A DNA stretch of 64,000 nucleotides from an uncultured Acidobacteriota bacterium (GTDB taxonomy: Bacteria > Acidobacteriota > UBA6911 > CAINFC01), in contig CAINFC010000079.1 in assembly GCA_903847975.1 (NCBI GenBank), positions 75,847-139,846 on the forward strand, given 5' to 3'. Shown here piece by piece: positions 24,001-30,000 of the stretch. The first letter of the stretch is position 1; the number at the start of each line of letters is the position of its first letter. A program made the position numbers.

Positions 24001-27000
24001 CCGCCCTGATCAAGCGGAAAAAAGATATCCTTCCCATGGCGGAGGGATTGGCCCGGGAATTTGCGCGCCGCACCGGCAAAAAGATCGAGGGGATTCACCC
24101 CGCAGCGGTGGTGGAGCTGCTGGAATACAGCTGGCCGGGAAACACCGAGGAACTGGCTGCCACTATTCGCTGCGCTGTCGACCTGGCCCAGGGGCCGGAG
24201 CTGATGCCCGAGGATGTGTTTGTCAGCGGCAAACCGGCTTTTTCCGGGCCGACCTTGAACATTCTGCCATGGAAGAATGTAGGCGGTTTGATCCGGCACC
24301 GCTGGTTTCCTGCTGCCCTGCAGTGGCCCGCAGGGATTGCCATTGCCCTGATTATGGCCCTGGGCTTCTGGGGGAATCCGTCCCCGGAACATAACGTCGC
24401 CCTGATTTTGGCCTGGTCTCTCTGGGAGCCGGCCGTTTTCTGGGGCGCCCTTTTCTTCGGCCGGGTGTGGTGTGCGATCTGTCCCATCGGTGGACTGAAT
24501 TCTGCGATAAGCGAGCGGTTCAGCCTGCAGCGCCGCATCCCTCCCTGGCTTCGGAAATATGGCCTGCACCTGGGCGCTGCGGGCCTGGCGGTGATTCTCT
24601 GGCTGGAAGAGGCGTCCGCCATGCCTTCGAGCGCCTGGGCCACCGCCTGGCTGGTGCTTTCTATCCTGCTGGGGGGGATCCTTTTTGCAGTGGTTTATGC
24701 CCGCCGCGCCTGGTGCCGCTACGTTTGTCCCTTCGGCGGGATGGTGGGCCTGTTCTCGTCCTGCGCTGCCCTGGAAATCCGCTCGAACAAGGGGGTCTGC
24801 GACAACGAGTGCAAGACCCATGCCTGTTTCAAAGGCGGCAAGTCCGGCGGGGGATGTCCTCTGCTCGAAGGACCCTTCATGCTGCAGACCAACATTCATT
24901 GCGTGATGTGTGGGCAGTGCATAAAAAATTGCCCGCACGGGGCGCTAAGGCTGAATCTGCGCCTGCCGGCTGCGGAGCTCTGGACCTCGGCTCAGCCGGC
25001 CGCTGCCATCGCCATCTATCTTCCGGTGGTGATCGCCAGCCAGGTTTTCCGTCAGACCTGGGCGACCGGAGTCTTTCGACCGCTGGAGGAACCGGCCGTC
25101 CTTCGATGGTCCTTCCTGGCGTTCTTCTTTCTTCTTCTGATCGCTGCGGCCAGCTGGTGGATGCAATCCTGCGGCCGCTCGCTCTTTGGCGGGGAGGAGG
25201 AGACTTCGCCAAACGCCTGGGGTTTTTTTGCCCATGCCCTGTTGCCGCTATCCCTGGCTTTCGAGCTCGGCTTCCAGACCGAGCGCGCCCTGGAGCGCGC
25301 CGGGCTATTTCCCGATGTTCTGCTTCACCAGATGGGGATTGCCTCTTCCGCTTCGCTGGGAGCGCCGGCCATTCCCTGGGTGGTTCAATTGATCCAGGTC
25401 GGCCTCTGCTTTCTCGGCATTCTGGCTTCGAATTCCCTGCTGAAAAAGCTGCTGTCCGAAAAGCGGGATCCCTGCCGGCAGCAGAAATACCCTATGGCCG
25501 GCGTCTGGTCCCTCGGCCTGCTGTATGTTGTCCTGCTCATTTTCGGCTAAGAGGGAAGCCCGAACCGGGTTCGACCTGCCGCAGCATGACCAGGGCCCGG
25601 GCGGCAGGCTCCAGCCGCGAGAGGGGAACACCGTCGATCGGAATGTCGTGACAGGAATCACACGACTGGGAAACGGTTTTGCCGCTTTCGCCGACATGCT
25701 GATCGTCATGGCAGCGGAAGCAGCCCAGTTCATTCTGGTGTCCAAGCAGGTTGAGGTAGTTGTTCCAGCCGATATTCATTTCCATGGAGACATTGATCCG
25801 GTAGGCCAGGCTGGACAGGGTTTGTGCTTCCGCGGCGAGGGAAGGCCGGAGCCTGTCGAACAGGTCCGGGAGCCTGGATTTGTAGTACGACTCCAGCGAT
25901 TCCAGAATTCCTTTGCCCGCCTCGGATCCGGGGGGATACTTCCGACTCAGCGCTTCCAGCGCGGCTTTTTTCAGGTGGGGAAGAGAAGTGTTCAGCTTTC
26001 CCTGGAAGAGCAGGCGGTCCAGGGCCTCTTCCTGGGATTCGTAGCGGTGTGCCACGCGGTTATGACAGTCCGTACAGTCCATGGTTCGCCAGGGCGTATC
26101 CGGAGCCGGGTCAGGCCAATCGGCTCGCACGTAACGTCTGGTTTTTCCCTTTTCGCTGACCCGCAGTTCCTTGATCTTTAGCCGCTGCGGATCGTCTGTC
26201 CGGTATTCGACATGGGCGTCGTGTCCCGCATGCCAGTGGATGCCTACCGCTTTTCCGGTGTCGGGAAGAAAGCCTCCCACGTGAAGCCGGACCAGAGTGA
26301 CCTGCGGATCCAGCAAATCGCTTTCGGCGGGAAAGCGGAAATAAACTTTATCGCGGTTGCTGTAATAAACCCGGCCGGAGTGGCATTCCTCGCACGTTTC
26401 CATGGCAGGTCTTAGGTTGTGTATCGGGGTTTTGATGGGCCGGCTGTAGTTCCCGGTAGAAGTGGCGTAGACCTGTCGGAAGCCGGAAAGTTTGGCCTTG
26501 ATATACCAGGCAGCTCCGTGTCCGATATGACACTCCGCACAGGAAACCTGAGAATGAGCCGATCGCTGGTGAAGGGCGAGGTCGGGGCCCATGACCGAGT
26601 GGCAGAACTTGCCGCAGAATTCGGTCGACTCGGTATACAGGTAAATATGGTAGGAGCCGAATGCCGCCAGCGTGGTCAGGAAGAGGGCCACGGTTGCCAG
26701 GAGCCGGCGCCGCATCTTTTTCCGGGCCTGTTCCGCCTCCTTGCGGCGCGTCACATCGCGGACCACAAGGTGAGTCATGTGCTCACCCTGGTGAAGGAAT
26801 GGAGAAGCCAGTAACTCCGCGTAAAACCAGGTCTGGTCCATGCGCCGGAAGCGGATTTCCTCCAGAGGAGTATCTGCTCCGGCGGTTTTTATCCGTTCTA
26901 CGACTTCCCTGGTTTGAAGACTTGCTTTGTCCGCGAAAAAATCTTCCAGGGATCGGCCGTGAACCTCCCGCGGACGGGTAACGCGAAGAATATCCAGGGA

Positions 27001-30000
27001 GGCCAGGTTGGCATAGCGGACGATTCCCTCTTCGTCCAGGAGAAGCACGAGGTCGGGAGACAACTCCACCAGTCGGCGATAGTGCTCTTCCTGCCCGGTG
27101 GAAGGCCTCTGCTCCAGGCTTTCTTCTGCCCCCGAACAGGGAGAGGTAGGGGAGGGCGCGGAGGTTGGATTAGTTTCCGGGATTCCCTCAGAAGAGGGCA
27201 TGGCGGCAGGAACTGAATGAGAAGGCATCTGCACTCTCCGATCCGATGTTTGGATGATGATTTTTTTAAAGGGTCAAATCATACCCGAGATCGGGGCAGG
27301 ATGCATCGTCTTTTTAGAGTTTTGTTTGGCGGTGATTAGGTTAATCCATTTTAATAAGTGACTAGGGTTAAGTCCTTGTCCGATATAAGGAAAAATTCTT
27401 TTTCATGAACCAGTGGTTACAAAAAACCCATTATGAGCTATAATAAAAGCAATAATTTATTAATTCAACAAATCAATGGTAGTAAAAATATTGAAACCTT
27501 AGTAGGGGTATTCGGAAAGAACATGGAATGATCAAAGCGAAAAACGCCCGGGTTTCCATGAGCCTGCCGGTTGGTCTGGCAGGTATGCTAATGAGCCTCT
27601 TTCTGTGCAGCTTTGCGAAGGGGGCCACCGTTACGCTGGCCTGGGATCCTCCCGCCAGTCCGGGCGTGGTCGGGTACAAACTGTATATCGGGACCAGCAG
27701 CCGCAATTACACCCGTATTTCATCCGTCGGGAGCCGTCTGAGCTGCCGAGTTTCCGGGCTATCCAAGGACCCCTATTATTTTGCCGTTACGGCTCTTGAC
27801 GCCGCCGGACGGGAAAGTCCTTTTTCGGAGGAGGTTTCCACCGAAATTTTTGCCAGCGGAACTTCAGCCGATCCCATCATCCCCGTGATTACGGTTTCCG
27901 ACCCGGACGATGCCACGCAGACATTCGTGGTGGTCACCACAACCGATCCTTCCGCATCCGCTTCCAAGGGCCCTCCGCAATCGGCTTCCCAGTTTCGCTA
28001 TTATTTCCCGCTTTTTTATTCTTCAGAAGCAGGTTTCGAAACCGGTCCGTGACACACCATTTTAAAATATGGAGGGGCCGGTCGGGATGGAGCGGCGGGA
28101 AGCCCCCTCTTTTGTAACGAAAAAAGTACCAGGAAAGGAGTGCAGGGCATGCGCAAATCCGAGAGAGAGATCGGTGATCGTACCGAGATGGATGCCATTA
28201 TCCGGGCGAGTATGGTGTGCCGCCTGGGACTCATGGACGAAAATGAGCCTTACATTGTTCCGCTCAGCTTCGGGTACGACGGCAACGCTCTCTATTTCCA
28301 TTCAGCCCCGGCGGGGAGAAAAATCGAGCTATTGGCCCGCAGGAATCGGGTTTGCTTCGAATTCGACAAGGTGGAAGGGCTGATTGCCGCCGAGGAGGCC
28401 TGTCGCTGGGGTGTCCGCTACCGCAGCGTGATGGGAACCGGGAGAGCCTTTCTCCTGGAGGACCTGGAGGAAAAACGTCACGCCCTGGCCCTGATCATGA
28501 GGCAGTATTCCCCTGGAACCTTCACCTTCCCGGAGGAATCGGTGCGAAAAACCGCCGTCATCAAGGTGGTTATCGAGACAATTTCCGGAAAGCAGACAGC
28601 CCGCACCTGAAGGGCCACCGCACCGGCATCCGGAATGCGAAGGGGGCATTTCTCCCCCCCCCCTTTGTCATACACTGGCTTGGTTATAGTTCCTTTTAGC
28701 TATTGCTATCTTCCTTATTCGAAGGATCGGCTGACTACGGCTTCAATTCTACTGATCAATCTCCAATAGCGGGTCCTCGACCTTATGGTCGGTCCCATCC
28801 TGTTTTTTTTCCACAATATCGTATTCAAATAATCCCGCAACGCCATTTTTCCGTCTGCCGGTCAGCGAATTTGTTTGGCCGTTGTAAAGGATCAGCTGCG
28901 GTGGATTCAGCACTACTGGAGGAGGATTGCAAGGTCTATTTGTACTTAAGTCTACAAAATTGTCGACCCGGATCCTGACCGGTTGTGCGTTTTGCTGATT
29001 GGATTGAAAAGTGAATATCCACTTAACTTCATCCTCATCATTTTTCATACACAATTTAGGTGTCGGTGTTTCGACCTTGTGATTCGGGTGTGTAGAACCT
29101 GGGTGCGTATCATCGTCGATGATTTGAACGTGGGCAATCTTTACATCCTCCTTCATTGGAACCTCCTGATAAAAGATGAGATTAATTATTGAACAATTCT
29201 CGGTATCGGGGGAATCGTTTCAGCGGAGCGAAATCTTCATTGTCTTCGATCTCTTTCCGGCTAATTCCATATTTGAGCGCTTGCTCCAGTTCGGAGATAC
29301 CTTTTTCCGGGTCCCCTGCCATAACGTGGATGGCTGCTTTGGAATAGAGAATATCCGGATGACGAGGAGAAATTGCCAAGGCCTGTTCGGCATGATTTAT
29401 GGCTTCTTTGGGTCTGCCTATTCTGGCTTCACAGTGGGCCATGACGATCATATCATTGGCACGGCTGGGATCGATTCGCAGCGTGTCCCGGGCTAACTCG
29501 ATGGCTCGTATGTAGTGAGCTTCTGCTTCCTCCCGCCTGCCAAGGTGCCGGTAGGCATCGCCGAGATTCATAAGGGTAATGCAGGCTTCACGGATTTGCA
29601 GAGCCCGCGAGTACATCGCAACGGCTTCCGGATATTTTTGCTGCCGGTAGTAGATGGTGCCAAGGTTGGAGAAGGCCGCCGGGCTGCTGCTGGTGCCCAG
29701 CTGAATGGCTCGCCGGTAGTTTGTCGCTGCCTGATCCAGGTCGCCGGTTTTGTGATAGGCGGTTCCCAGGTTCTGATAGCCCCAGGATAGATCCGGCTGC
29801 AGTTCCGTCAGCCGCTTCAGGACCGAAATCGATTCCGCATAACGGCCCGATTTCAGCAGAGCCAGGCCCAGCGCCTGATAGTTGCGCCAGAAGTTGGGAC
29901 GCAATTCGATGGCTTTGCGGTATTCGCGGAAGGACTCCTCCATCAGGGCTTTCTTTTCCAGGGCCTGTCCCAGCATGCGATGGGCATGGTCGTTGTTGGG

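What the first reader, a model, noticed from the sequence alone, without database searches (positions are those of the whole stretch)
25537..27234. PAS domain fused to a membrane-anchored multiheme cytochrome c
Cytoplasmic PAS domains attached to a NapC/NirT-type periplasmic heme domain are uncommon. Of the six heme motifs, one is the rare CxxxCH variant (CGKFCH). The N-terminal 45 residues are low-complexity (P/S/T-rich).
Basis: seen in the sequence. Interest (0 to 1): 0.55.

Follow-up and report, generated by a model that had tools for sequence, protein, structure and literature searches.

The report
PAS domain fused to ImcH-type cytochrome
This gene encodes a six-haem membrane cytochrome of the ImcH family, which moves electrons from the membrane quinone pool to the periplasm. 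It carries a cytoplasmic PAS sensor domain in place of two membrane helices, a rare and undescribed variant that may show how such an enzyme can be regulated or used as a sensor.

Summary
The ORF at 25537-27234 (-) has a likely ATG start at 27228. It encodes a disordered S/P-rich tail, a PAS domain, one membrane helix and six c-haem motifs, the first being CGKFCH.

- The haem domain belongs to the ImcH family of Geobacter, a NapC/NirT-related menaquinol oxidase. It is 39% identical over 364 residues to a Geotalea ImcH homologue.
- The "rare" CX3CH motif is the invariant hallmark of that family, and the quinol-pocket residues sit at the published offsets.
- Canonical ImcH has three membrane helices. 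Here helices 1-2 are replaced by a signalling-type PAS domain. In the AlphaFold model it runs through an RDVT motif into one continuous helix that becomes the membrane anchor.

The fusion is real. The gene occurs on nine contigs, and orthologues of 42-67% identity share the architecture. All PAS-bearing members form one exclusive clade. It is also rare: 2 of 477 50%-identity clusters, and 3 of the 80 best species-representative genome loci.

PAS-ImcH genes are specifically linked to a NapH-like membrane polyferredoxin gene: 4 of 6 PAS loci against 0 of 157 ordinary ImcH loci. In this window that neighbour also carries a cNMP-binding domain and a degenerate sigma-54 AAA+ domain.

The function is inferred: a PAS-coupled quinol-to-periplasm electron module. 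I rate it a new variant of a known kind, of moderate interest.

The parts
25537..27234 (-). Whole PAS-ImcH gene. 565 aa from the GTG at 27234; the likely true start is the ATG at 27228, giving 563 aa.
   Evidence: ORF. GGAGA lies 6 nt upstream of the ATG. P0001 is 100% identical over 563 aa and is seen on 9 contigs.
27100..27234 (-). Disordered S/P/T-rich N-terminal tail (aa 1-45), cytoplasmic and not conserved.
   Evidence: Composition. pLDDT below 50. Absent or different in orthologues.
26755..27096 (-). Cytoplasmic PAS domain (aa 47-160). It ends in a conserved RDVT ('DIT'-type) motif.
   Evidence: Pfam and NCBIfam hits. pLDDT of about 87-96 with a PAS alpha/beta fold. Foldseek hits to FixL, LOV, DOS and PpsR PAS domains at probability 1.0. 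Mean pairwise identity of 49% within the clade.
26632..26751 (-). One continuous helix (aa 162-201). It starts as a basic cytoplasmic linker (RRKEAEQARKKMRRR) and continues as the membrane anchor (core aa 178-198, window 26641-26703).
   Evidence: DSSP helix 162-201 in the AF2 model. Charge asymmetry of 9 K/R against 1. Aligns with TMH3 of canonical ImcH.
25582..26631 (-). Periplasmic ImcH-type hexahaem domain (aa 202-551). It includes the quinol-pocket residues E202, K248, Q254 and Y263.
   Evidence: 39% identity over 364 aa, E 6e-88, to the Geotalea ImcH homologue. Residue offsets match those published for G. sulfurreducens ImcH. NrfH (2j7a) profile hit.
26599..26616 (-). Haem 1 motif CGKFCH (CX3CH), next to the membrane.
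   Evidence: The CGxxCH motif is found in all 60 printed family members, and C207, C211 and H212 are invariant in all 120 aligned members. Described as the ImcH hallmark in PMC6295460.
26527..26541 (-). Haem 2 motif CAECH.
26380..26394 (-). Haem 3 motif CEECH.
26062..26076 (-). Haem 4 motif CTDCH.
25708..25722 (-). Haem 5 motif CFRCH.
25648..25662 (-). Haem 6 motif CDSCH. It is the last haem; canonical Geobacter ImcH has a seventh.
   Evidence: Geotalea ImcH has a 7th motif, CSECH.
22947..25550 (+). Probable partner gene, convergent, with a 14-bp 3' overlap. It encodes cNMP-binding (aa 32-114, window 23040-23288), a degenerate sigma-54-type AAA+ domain (aa 167-424, window 23445-24218) and a NapH-like membrane polyferredoxin (aa 441-867, window 24267-25547).
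   Evidence: Pfam and NCBIfam. Homologues of the NapH-like part lie next to PAS-ImcH in L004, L008 and L078 but in none of 157 non-PAS ImcH loci (Fisher p = 5e-7). Degenerate ATPase motifs.
27235..27527 (-). AT-rich upstream intergenic region with a weak sigma-70-like site (TTGAAT-17-TATTAT, 27468-27440). The gene appears to have its own promoter.
   Evidence: Sequence. Consensus scan, which is not evidence of function.

Best explanation
Shown by sequence, homology and modelling. The gene encodes an inner-membrane hexahaem c-type cytochrome of the ImcH family. ImcH is the NapC/NirT-related menaquinol oxidase that Geobacter uses to feed electrons from the quinone pool into the periplasm. The two extra N-terminal membrane helices of ImcH have been replaced by a cytoplasmic, signalling-type PAS domain.

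The layout is N-in:
- a disordered tail (aa 1-45);
- a PAS domain (aa 47-160);
- an RDVT motif;
- a single continuous helix (aa 162-201), first a basic linker and then the membrane anchor;
- Glu202 at the quinol pocket beside haem 1 (CX3CH, His212, distal Gln254, with Lys248 and Tyr263);
- haems 2-6 in the periplasm.

Inferred. The haem domain still oxidises menaquinol, or reduces menaquinone, at the outer face of the membrane and passes electrons along the six-haem chain to soluble periplasmic carriers. The PAS domain probably works as a dimer on the cytoplasmic face. It is mechanically coupled through the rigid helix to the anchor and quinol site. A cytoplasmic cue or bound partner could therefore tune, or be informed by, electron flow between the quinone pool and the periplasm.

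The most likely partner is the NapH-type membrane polyferredoxin encoded next door. The pair would then be a regulated analogue of the NapC-NapH pairing. In this organism the neighbour adds a cyclic-nucleotide-binding domain and a catalytically dead sigma-54-type AAA+ domain.
For: Family identity:
- 872 homologues were found.
- 39% identity over 364 aa, E 6e-88, to the 3-TM, 7-haem ImcH homologue of Geotalea sp. SG265.
- C207, C211 and H212 of the CX3CH motif are invariant in all 120 aligned members, and G208 is nearly invariant. PMC6295460 describes CX3CH as the ImcH signature.
- E202, K248, Q254 and Y263 lie at exactly the offsets from the haem-1 His (-10, +36, +42, +51) reported for E127, K173, Q179 and Y188 of G. 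sulfurreducens ImcH.
- Candidate distal histidines are invariant or nearly invariant (H227, H333, H335 and H396 in 120 of 120; H499 in 119; H513 in 117).

PAS and topology:
- Curated thresholds are passed.
- The AF2 model has mean pLDDT 84, with a high-confidence PAS fold and a continuous helix 162-201.
- Foldseek gives PAS hits at probability 1.0.
- The positive-inside charge bias is 9 to 1.

Real and selected:
- The same gene sits on 9 contigs from several samples.
- Thirteen full-length orthologues of 42-67% identity share the architecture.
- PAS-bearing members form an exclusive clade on a tree built from the cytochrome domain alone.
- The PAS domain is as conserved as the middle of the haem domain: 49% against 51% mean pairwise identity.

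Partner:
- A NapH-like profile hits 4 of 6 distinct PAS-ImcH loci, in three different relative gene orientations. It hits 0 of 157 non-PAS loci. Fisher p = 5e-7.
Against: - No biochemical data exist for any member of the clade.
- The PAS domain shows no recognisable cofactor signature. There is no LOV cysteine, and the His at the FixL/DOS-like position is not conserved in the window protein. The cue is therefore unknown.
- There is no enzymatic output domain, so the direction of signalling cannot be read from the architecture.
- The NapH-like neighbour is absent from 2 of 6 PAS loci with DNA (L005/L006 and L007). It is also absent from the called genes of the P0011 locus.
- In this window the two genes are convergent, so they are not co-transcribed.
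- Two NapH-like homologues occur without PAS-ImcH on short contigs.
- No periplasmic or outer-membrane cytochrome partners lie within 64 kb.
- The structure is a monomer prediction without haems. Dimerisation and coupling are inferred by analogy with other PAS proteins, and from the dimeric behaviour of ImcH in detergent.
Confidence: 0.55

Rival explanations
1. It is a transmitter-less redox sensor. The ImcH-like haem domain is the input and reads the redox state of the menaquinone pool or of periplasmic carriers. The PAS domain is the output and relays that state by protein-protein contact to a cytoplasmic partner, for example the cNMP/pseudo-AAA+ domains of the neighbour or another regulator. 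Bulk electron transfer is not its job.
For: - There are no partner cytochromes or reductases in the 64-kb window.
- The neighbour carries regulatory-type domains.
- PAS domains bind AAA+ activators in the NifL-NifA system; a NifL-NifA complex appears among the Foldseek hits (rank 39).
- The PAS domain is well conserved (49%), which fits a specific interaction surface.
Against: - The quinol-pocket and haem-ligand residues are as conserved as in catalytic ImcH.
- The NapH-like partners in L004 and L078 lack the cNMP and AAA+ domains, so the conserved link is to the membrane Fe-S domain, not to a regulator.
- The domain order (PAS, RDVT, helix, then the downstream domain) is the usual input-to-effector order for PAS domains.
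Confidence: 0.22
2. The PAS domain is purely structural. It replaces TM helices 1-2 as a dimerisation or stabilisation module, or as a docking platform. The protein is then an ordinary, unregulated ImcH-type quinol dehydrogenase.
For: - ImcH behaves as a dimer in detergent.
- One-TM ImcH homologues and one-TM NrfH/CymA work without helices 1-2.
- No cofactor signature is visible in the PAS domain.
Against: - The conserved RDVT motif and the unbroken helix into the membrane are typical of signal-transmitting PAS domains.
- Some orthologues carry a second PAS domain (P0008, P0009, P0012), which is unnecessary for simple dimerisation.
- There is a specific genomic link to a partner protein.
Confidence: 0.18
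3. It is the NapC/NirT/NrfH-type quinol dehydrogenase subunit of a nitrate, nitrite or TMAO reductase.
For: PF03264 scores above threshold, and there are weak hits to the NrfH, TorC and NapC models. A profile hit to NrfH 2j7a was also found.
Against: - Scores are far below the equivalog cut-offs: NrfH 47 against 134, NapC/NirT 15 against 311, TorC 24 against 478.
- It has six haems, a CX3CH first motif and a roughly 350-aa domain typical of ImcH.
- There are no nap, nrf or tor genes in the window.
Confidence: 0.03
4. It is an artefact: a chimeric assembly, a frameshift fusion of two genes, or a decaying pseudogene.
For: None found. Only one variant (L078) shows an internal deletion.
Against: - The identical gene occurs on 9 contigs from several samples.
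- Orthologues from independent metagenomes share the architecture in a single frame.
- They form a monophyletic clade.
- Both domains are under conservation.
Confidence: 0.02

Closest known systems
ImcH (GSU3259) of Geobacter sulfurreducens and its homologues
   Same: The region from TMH3 through haem 6 is homologous: 39% identity to a Geotalea homologue. It shares the CX3CH first haem beside the membrane, the His/Gln-type haem-1 site, and the E/K/Q/Y pocket residues at identical spacing. The predicted orientation is the same, with the haems in the periplasm.
   Different: It has one TM helix rather than three, and six haems rather than seven. A cytoplasmic PAS domain sits where TMH1-2 would be. 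It is not in a cytochrome-rich gene neighbourhood. Neither ImcH paper read here uses the word PAS, and no PAS-ImcH fusion surfaced in the literature searches.
NrfH / CymA / NapC (NapC/NirT family quinol dehydrogenases)
   Same: It has a single N-terminal anchor helix followed directly by haem 1 at the quinol site. The first three to four haems align (ImcH/NrfH superposition described).
   Different: Those proteins are tetra- or pentahaem, 140-390 aa, with a CX2CH first motif and no cytoplasmic domain. The window protein fails their equivalog score cut-offs.
NapC-NapGH pairing in periplasmic nitrate reductase systems
   Same: A NapC/NirT-superfamily cytochrome is paired with a NapH-type membrane polyferredoxin that has CxxCP/CxxxCP motifs and cytoplasmic 4Fe-4S motifs. 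From memory, E. coli NapH was reported to interact with NapC (Brondijk et al. 2004, cited as ref. 29 in PMC6195509). I could not read that paper.
   Different: There are no NapG, NapA or NapB genes. The NapH-like protein is much larger, with extra C-terminal helices. Here it is fused to cNMP-binding and degenerate AAA+ domains. The role of NapGH is itself debated.
Aer-type receptors (N-terminal cytoplasmic PAS followed by a membrane anchor)
   Same: The order of parts matches: a cytoplasmic PAS at the N-terminus, then a membrane segment. The theme of coupling to the respiratory chain also matches. This comparison rests on my own knowledge and was not tested here.
   Different: Aer binds FAD and signals through HAMP and MCP domains in the cytoplasm, and it has no periplasmic redox domain. 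No FAD signature or output domain is present here.
Periplasmic haem-c PAS sensors (GSU0582/GSU0935 chemoreceptors)
   Same: They combine a PAS fold with c-type haem in one membrane protein of a metal-reducing bacterium. This rests on my own knowledge.
   Different: In those proteins the PAS domain itself is periplasmic and binds the haem, and a cytoplasmic MCP output follows. Here the PAS domain is cytoplasmic and lacks any haem motif. The haems sit in a separate ImcH domain.

Membership tests
ImcH family (inner-membrane multihaem quinol oxidases) | Sequence homology across the anchor helix and the multihaem domain | tested here: met
   39% identity over 364 aa, E 6e-88, to the Geotalea sp. 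SG265 homologue. 872 family hits. 477 clusters at E <= 1e-30.
ImcH family (inner-membrane multihaem quinol oxidases) | Atypical CX3CH haem motif immediately after the membrane domain | tested here: met
   CGKFCH at aa 207-212, 9 residues after the helix. Conserved across the family. Described as the family feature in PMC6295460.
ImcH family (inner-membrane multihaem quinol oxidases) | Conserved haem-1/quinol-pocket residues (E127, K173, Q179, Y188 in G. sulfurreducens numbering) | tested here: met
   E202, K248, Q254 and Y263 sit at identical offsets from the haem-1 His. Across 120 members: K in 120, Q in 119, E/D in 120, Y/F in 120.
ImcH family (inner-membrane multihaem quinol oxidases) | Three N-terminal transmembrane helices | tested here: not met
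   There is only one hydrophobic helix, and the PAS domain takes the place of TMH1-2. The literature does accept one-TM homologues as family members, so this marks a variant rather than an exclusion.
ImcH family (inner-membrane multihaem quinol oxidases) | Seven haems in Geobacter; a reported family range of 6-10 | tested here: met
   Six motifs, which is within the published range. The closest 3-TM relatives, P0018-P0025, also have six.
ImcH family (inner-membrane multihaem quinol oxidases) | Menaquinol oxidation, and a requirement for high-potential extracellular electron transfer | not testable with these tools
   Needs biochemistry or genetics.
NapC/NirT/NrfH quinol dehydrogenases (sensu stricto) | Score above the curated equivalog or subfamily thresholds | tested here: not met
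   TIGR03153 NrfH 47.2 against 134.2; TIGR02161 NapC/NirT 14.9 against 310.6; TIGR02162 TorC 24.2 against 478.2. Only the broad Pfam N-terminal model PF03264 passes, at 31.9 against 24.1.
PAS domain superfamily | Profile match above threshold, and the PAS alpha/beta fold | tested here: met
   PF13426 47.5 against 27; PF00989 41.8 against 22.6; TIGR00229 55.7 against 22.9. The AF2 model has a five-strand sheet at pLDDT of about 87-96. Foldseek hits to FixL, LOV and DOS at probability 1.0.
Cofactor-binding PAS classes (FixL/DOS haem-b, LOV flavin) | Conserved proximal His on the F-alpha helix, or the LOV cysteine motif | tested here: not met
   The clade alignment has no conserved Cys in the PAS domain. 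The His of the 'VHPDS' segment in most orthologues is replaced in the window protein (FADKA) and in P0002 and P0003. This was judged by sequence inspection only.
NapH/MauN-type membrane polyferredoxins (the neighbour gene) | Membrane helices with CxxCP/CxxxCP motifs plus 4Fe-4S cysteine motifs | tested here: inconclusive
   PF12801 scores 33.7 against 22, and the invariant motifs WCxxCP, CRYVCP and CxxCGxCxK are present. But TIGR02163 scores 43 against 213, and NapH PRK09477 37.5 against 234. It is a related family, not NapH itself.

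The most novel reading that the evidence does not exclude
PAS-ImcH and the NapH-like polyferredoxin form a previously unrecognised two-protein membrane module. 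A NapC/NirT-superfamily quinol dehydrogenase is directly gated by cytoplasmic sensor domains: its own PAS, and in some lineages cNMP-binding and pseudo-AAA+ domains on the partner. It would be the first example of allosteric, signal-dependent control of electron exit from the quinone pool at the level of the enzyme itself. In the reverse direction, it would be a transmitter-less sensor of quinone-pool redox state.
Probability: 0.2. Interest if true: 0.7.

Novelty: new variant of a known kind. Interest (0 to 1): 0.45.

Why it matters
ImcH-type cytochromes are the entry point for electrons leaving the quinone pool in many metal-reducing and soil bacteria. So far they have been seen as unregulated, constitutive wires controlled only by gene expression.

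A conserved clade that hard-wires a cytoplasmic PAS sensor onto the helix forming the quinol site points to one of two things. Either electron outflow is controlled after translation, or a respiratory enzyme scaffold has been recruited as a redox sensor. The clade's link to a NapH-like Fe-S membrane protein carrying further regulatory domains supports the idea that a partner is involved.

Either reading would be useful for understanding redox homeostasis in uncultured soil and sediment bacteria. It would also help in engineering switchable extracellular electron transfer. The claim is directly testable with standard heterologous cytochrome expression.

Tried and rejected
- A PAS-plus-linker-only homologue search returned one ordinary multi-PAS sensor fragment (P0282) and not even the known orthologues. 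It says nothing about whether the PAS-TM-redox-domain architecture exists elsewhere.
These served as extra negative controls, not as new PAS-ImcH contexts.
- Contexts of the NapH-like homologues P0123, P0124 and P0125 lie on contigs of 2.6-4.1 kb. That is too short to test reciprocity properly.
- Brondijk et al. 2004 on the NapH-NapC interaction is not held, so that point rests on memory.
- Cluster look-up gave no organism names. The window's taxonomy is therefore unresolved. Among the PAS-bearing genome relatives, L007 is labelled a Bryobacterales MAG.
- There are no Rfam hits in the window.
- Pfam scans of 20 further window ORFs found no respiratory or cytochrome-maturation genes. Many of those ORFs are probably shadow ORFs in high-GC DNA.
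- I rejected a periplasmic PAS (no signal peptide, strong positive-inside bias), a NapC/NrfH assignment (equivalog scores) and an assembly artefact (9 contigs, orthologues, monophyly).
- I found no sigma-54-type promoter by eye in 27235-27540. This was not tested formally.

Full report
**1. The observation**

The ORF at 25537-27234 on the minus strand is present (565 aa from a GTG). A GGAGA Shine-Dalgarno sequence lies 6 nt before the ATG at 27228. The identical database protein P0001 (563 aa) starts there too, so the ATG is the likelier start.

Six c-haem motifs are present at aa 207-212 (CGKFCH) and at 232, 281, 387, 505 and 525 (all CxxCH). I verified the coordinates by translation. No other ORF in the 64-kb window has two or more such motifs.

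The PAS call passes curated thresholds: PF13426 47.5 bits against 27, PF00989 41.8 against 22.6, TIGR00229 55.7 against 22.9. The NapC/NirT N-terminal Pfam model also passes, at 31.9 against 24.1. The first 45 residues are S/P/T-rich (10 S, 9 P, 3 T). They are predicted disordered and are not conserved in orthologues.

**2. What the haem domain is**

A homologue search returned 872 proteins. Most are 480-540 aa, have three N-terminal hydrophobic helices, and carry 6-8 (up to 13) haem motifs. The first motif was CGxxCH in nearly every member inspected, one showing CAEQCH instead.

The literature identifies this architecture as ImcH, the inner-membrane menaquinol oxidase that Geobacter sulfurreducens needs for high-potential extracellular electron transfer. 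PMC6295460 describes it as three TM helices, an atypical CX3CH next to the membrane, and five to nine CX2CH motifs. The 2023 preprint describes a His/Gln-coordinated haem 1 and conserved E127, K173 and Y188 around a NrfH-like quinol pocket.

In the window protein, E202, K248, Q254 and Y263 lie at exactly the same offsets from the haem-1 histidine (-10, +36, +42, +51). The same holds in a Geobacteraceae homologue I fetched. That homologue is from Geotalea sp. SG265 (508 aa, 3 TM, 7 haems). It aligns at 39% identity over 364 residues, E 6e-88, from TMH3 to haem 6.

Candidate distal histidines (H227, H333, H335, H396, H499, H513) are invariant or nearly so across 120 members. By contrast, scores against the NrfH, NapC/NirT and TorC equivalog models are far below their cut-offs. 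The domain is therefore ImcH-type. The "rare CxxxCH" is the family hallmark, not a peculiarity of this gene.

**3. The PAS domain, topology and structure**

AlphaFold2 on a 120-sequence alignment gave mean pLDDT 84 and pTM 0.70. The model has these parts:
- a disordered tail (aa 1-42);
- a high-confidence PAS fold (aa 47-160);
- one unbroken helix (aa 162-201);
- the haem domain.

Foldseek against the PDB returned FixL, LOV, EcDOS and PpsR PAS domains at probability 1.0. A profile search also found the PpsR PAS domain and NrfH.

The PAS domain ends in a conserved RDVT(R)RK motif. This is the "DIT"-type junction that, to my knowledge, connects signalling PAS domains to their output helices. The one protein found in the PAS-only search has the same junction leading into a coiled coil.

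The helix starts as a basic linker (RRKEAEQARKKMRRR). It continues as the only hydrophobic segment (aa 178-198). Charge is 9 K/R on the N-flank and 1 on the C-flank. There is no N-terminal signal peptide, and c-haem attachment occurs on the periplasmic side (established knowledge). So PAS is cytoplasmic and the haems periplasmic.

No cofactor signature is visible. There is no conserved Cys, and the His present in most orthologues at the F-alpha position is absent from the window protein.

**4. Reality, rarity and evolution of the fusion**

The identical gene occurs on nine contigs from several samples. Thirteen full-length orthologues of 42-67% identity share the PAS-TM-hexahaem layout. Three of them (P0008, P0009, P0012) carry a second N-terminal PAS domain.

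In an exhaustive search of 1.84 billion cluster representatives, 477 clusters match at E <= 1e-30. Only two of the best 150 (P0002 and P0010) cover the PAS region together with the haem domain. Among the 80 best GTDB species-representative genome loci, out of 570 relatives found, only three match the PAS region (L007, L008, L078).

The other long ImcH relatives only add periplasmic multihaem domains. A neighbour-joining tree built from the cytochrome domain alone places all 16 PAS-bearing sequences in one exclusive clade. This points to a single fusion event that has been retained.

Within the clade the PAS domain is about as conserved as the central part of the haem domain: 49% against 51% mean pairwise identity. 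That argues for a specific, selected role.

**5. Genomic context**

The window gene has its own AT-rich upstream region. Its 3' end overlaps by 14 bp the 3' end of a convergent 867-aa gene (22947-25550). That gene encodes a cNMP-binding domain, a sigma-54-type AAA+ domain and a NapH-like membrane polyferredoxin.

Homologues of the NapH-like part lie next to PAS-ImcH in three other, distantly related loci:
- L008: upstream, co-directional, 74-bp gap, and also carrying the AAA+ domain.
- L078: upstream, co-directional, 618 aa.
- L004: divergent, 618 aa.

A profile HMM of this domain hits none of the 157 non-PAS ImcH loci fetched, within about 1.8 Mb of loci held in all. That is 4 of 6 against 0 of 157, Fisher p = 5e-7.

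Two PAS loci lack the neighbour. L005/L006 instead has a CbcL-like gene, and L007 has none. The gene calls for the P0011 locus also show none. No other cytochromes or respiratory genes lie within the window.

**6. How it most likely works**

Shown: an N-in, single-span, hexahaem ImcH-type cytochrome with an intact quinol pocket, and a cytoplasmic signalling-type PAS domain rigidly connected to the anchor helix.

Inferred: it exchanges electrons between menaquinol and periplasmic carriers, as ImcH does. The PAS domain, probably as a dimer, couples a cytoplasmic cue or partner to the anchor helix and quinol site. ImcH itself behaves as a dimer in detergent. The partner is most likely the NapH-like polyferredoxin, which would echo the NapC-NapH pairing.

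I give this 0.55 overall. Identity and topology are near-certain. The gating mechanism is perhaps 0.4.

The rivals are:
- the haem domain as sensor with PAS as output (0.22);
- a purely structural PAS domain (0.18);
- a NapC/NrfH reductase subunit (0.03);
- an artefact (0.02).

**7. Comparison with known systems, and novelty**

The protein works like ImcH and passes the sequence-based membership tests. It departs in the number of TM helices and in carrying a cytoplasmic domain. The ImcH papers I read contain no occurrence of "PAS", and the literature searches turned up no such fusion. Public annotation is only "PAS domain S-box-containing protein".

I classify it as a new variant of a known kind. 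Interest is moderate (0.45). The architecture is rare, conserved and suggestive of enzyme-level regulation of quinone-pool electron exit, with a specific and itself unusual partner. But the function is inferred only, and the parts are individually familiar.

**8. Dead ends**

See the section on what was tried and rejected. The main ones were:
- the PAS-only search;
- the metagenome scan that returned only non-PAS loci;
- short contigs for the NapH-like homologues;
- unavailable structure libraries;
- an unavailable paper;
- unresolved taxonomy.

Noticed in passing
window 22947-25550 (+): This 867-aa protein joins a cNMP-binding domain, a sigma-54-type AAA+ domain and a NapH-like membrane polyferredoxin, with no DNA-binding HTH. 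The AAA+ motifs are degenerate here and in the two other AAA+-bearing homologues aligned (L008 and P0123): Walker A is GPAGTEKQ / GPAGTELH / GDHGSMKS, there is no GAFTGA loop, and the Walker B DE is lost. Only 12 homologues of the membrane part were found in the 5.8-billion-protein search. A pseudo-activator tethered to a membrane Fe-S protein is arguably odder than the flagged gene.
   Followed up: partly
window 25537-25550: The convergent PAS-ImcH and NapH-like genes overlap by 14 bp at their 3' ends. The last roughly 14 residues of PAS-ImcH are a non-conserved, disordered extension.
   Followed up: no
L005 9273-11495; about 55 of the 157 non-PAS ImcH loci in L009-L169: A CbcL-like gene (multihaem domain plus a dihaem cytochrome b domain) lies next to the 61%-identical PAS-ImcH of L005. 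tblastn hits to it also occur in about 55 of the 157 ordinary ImcH loci. Some hits may reflect only the generic multihaem domain. imcH-cbcL adjacency looks widespread outside Geobacter.
   Followed up: partly
L078 7953-9122: This is a short (389 aa) PAS-ImcH variant in a MAG labelled Cytophagia. It lacks the region matching residues 335-503 (the haem-4 region) but keeps PAS, the TM helix, haems 1-3 and haems 5-6, with the NapH-like gene just upstream. It could be a natural deletion or an assembly error.
   Followed up: no
L088 196-3986: A 471-aa homologue of the NapH-like domain sits in a cluster with a cytochrome c assembly protein (PF01578), a thioredoxin/AhpC-TSA-type protein, DUF1573 and a PCYCGC protein. 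This hints that this polyferredoxin family may serve periplasmic thiol, metal or cytochrome maturation rather than respiration.
   Followed up: no
P0269 (1429 aa), P0251 (1166 aa), P0141, P0152, P0159, P0211: These ImcH-family relatives are fused to large additional periplasmic multihaem domains (Cytochrome_cB, c7, MtrC-like, paired CXXCH). In P0269 the ImcH module lies at residues 982-1355, downstream of about 980 aa of cytochrome domains.
   Followed up: partly
window about 36174-36976 (L001 253-1055); L004 4156-4500: STAS (anti-sigma-factor antagonist-like) genes occur near PAS-ImcH in both the window organism (about 9 kb away, beside an HATPase_c_2 gene) and L004 (about 3.5 kb away). This is probably coincidence.
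   Followed up: no
Desulfobulbales-type loci among L015-L086 (e.g. L020, L042, L068): Many non-PAS ImcH loci have a sigma-54 AAA+ activator gene about 5 kb upstream of imcH, at a similar position. The tblastn hits show 25-32% identity to the AAA+ part of the window neighbour. It may be a conserved regulator of imcH in that lineage, or just generic similarity.
   Followed up: no
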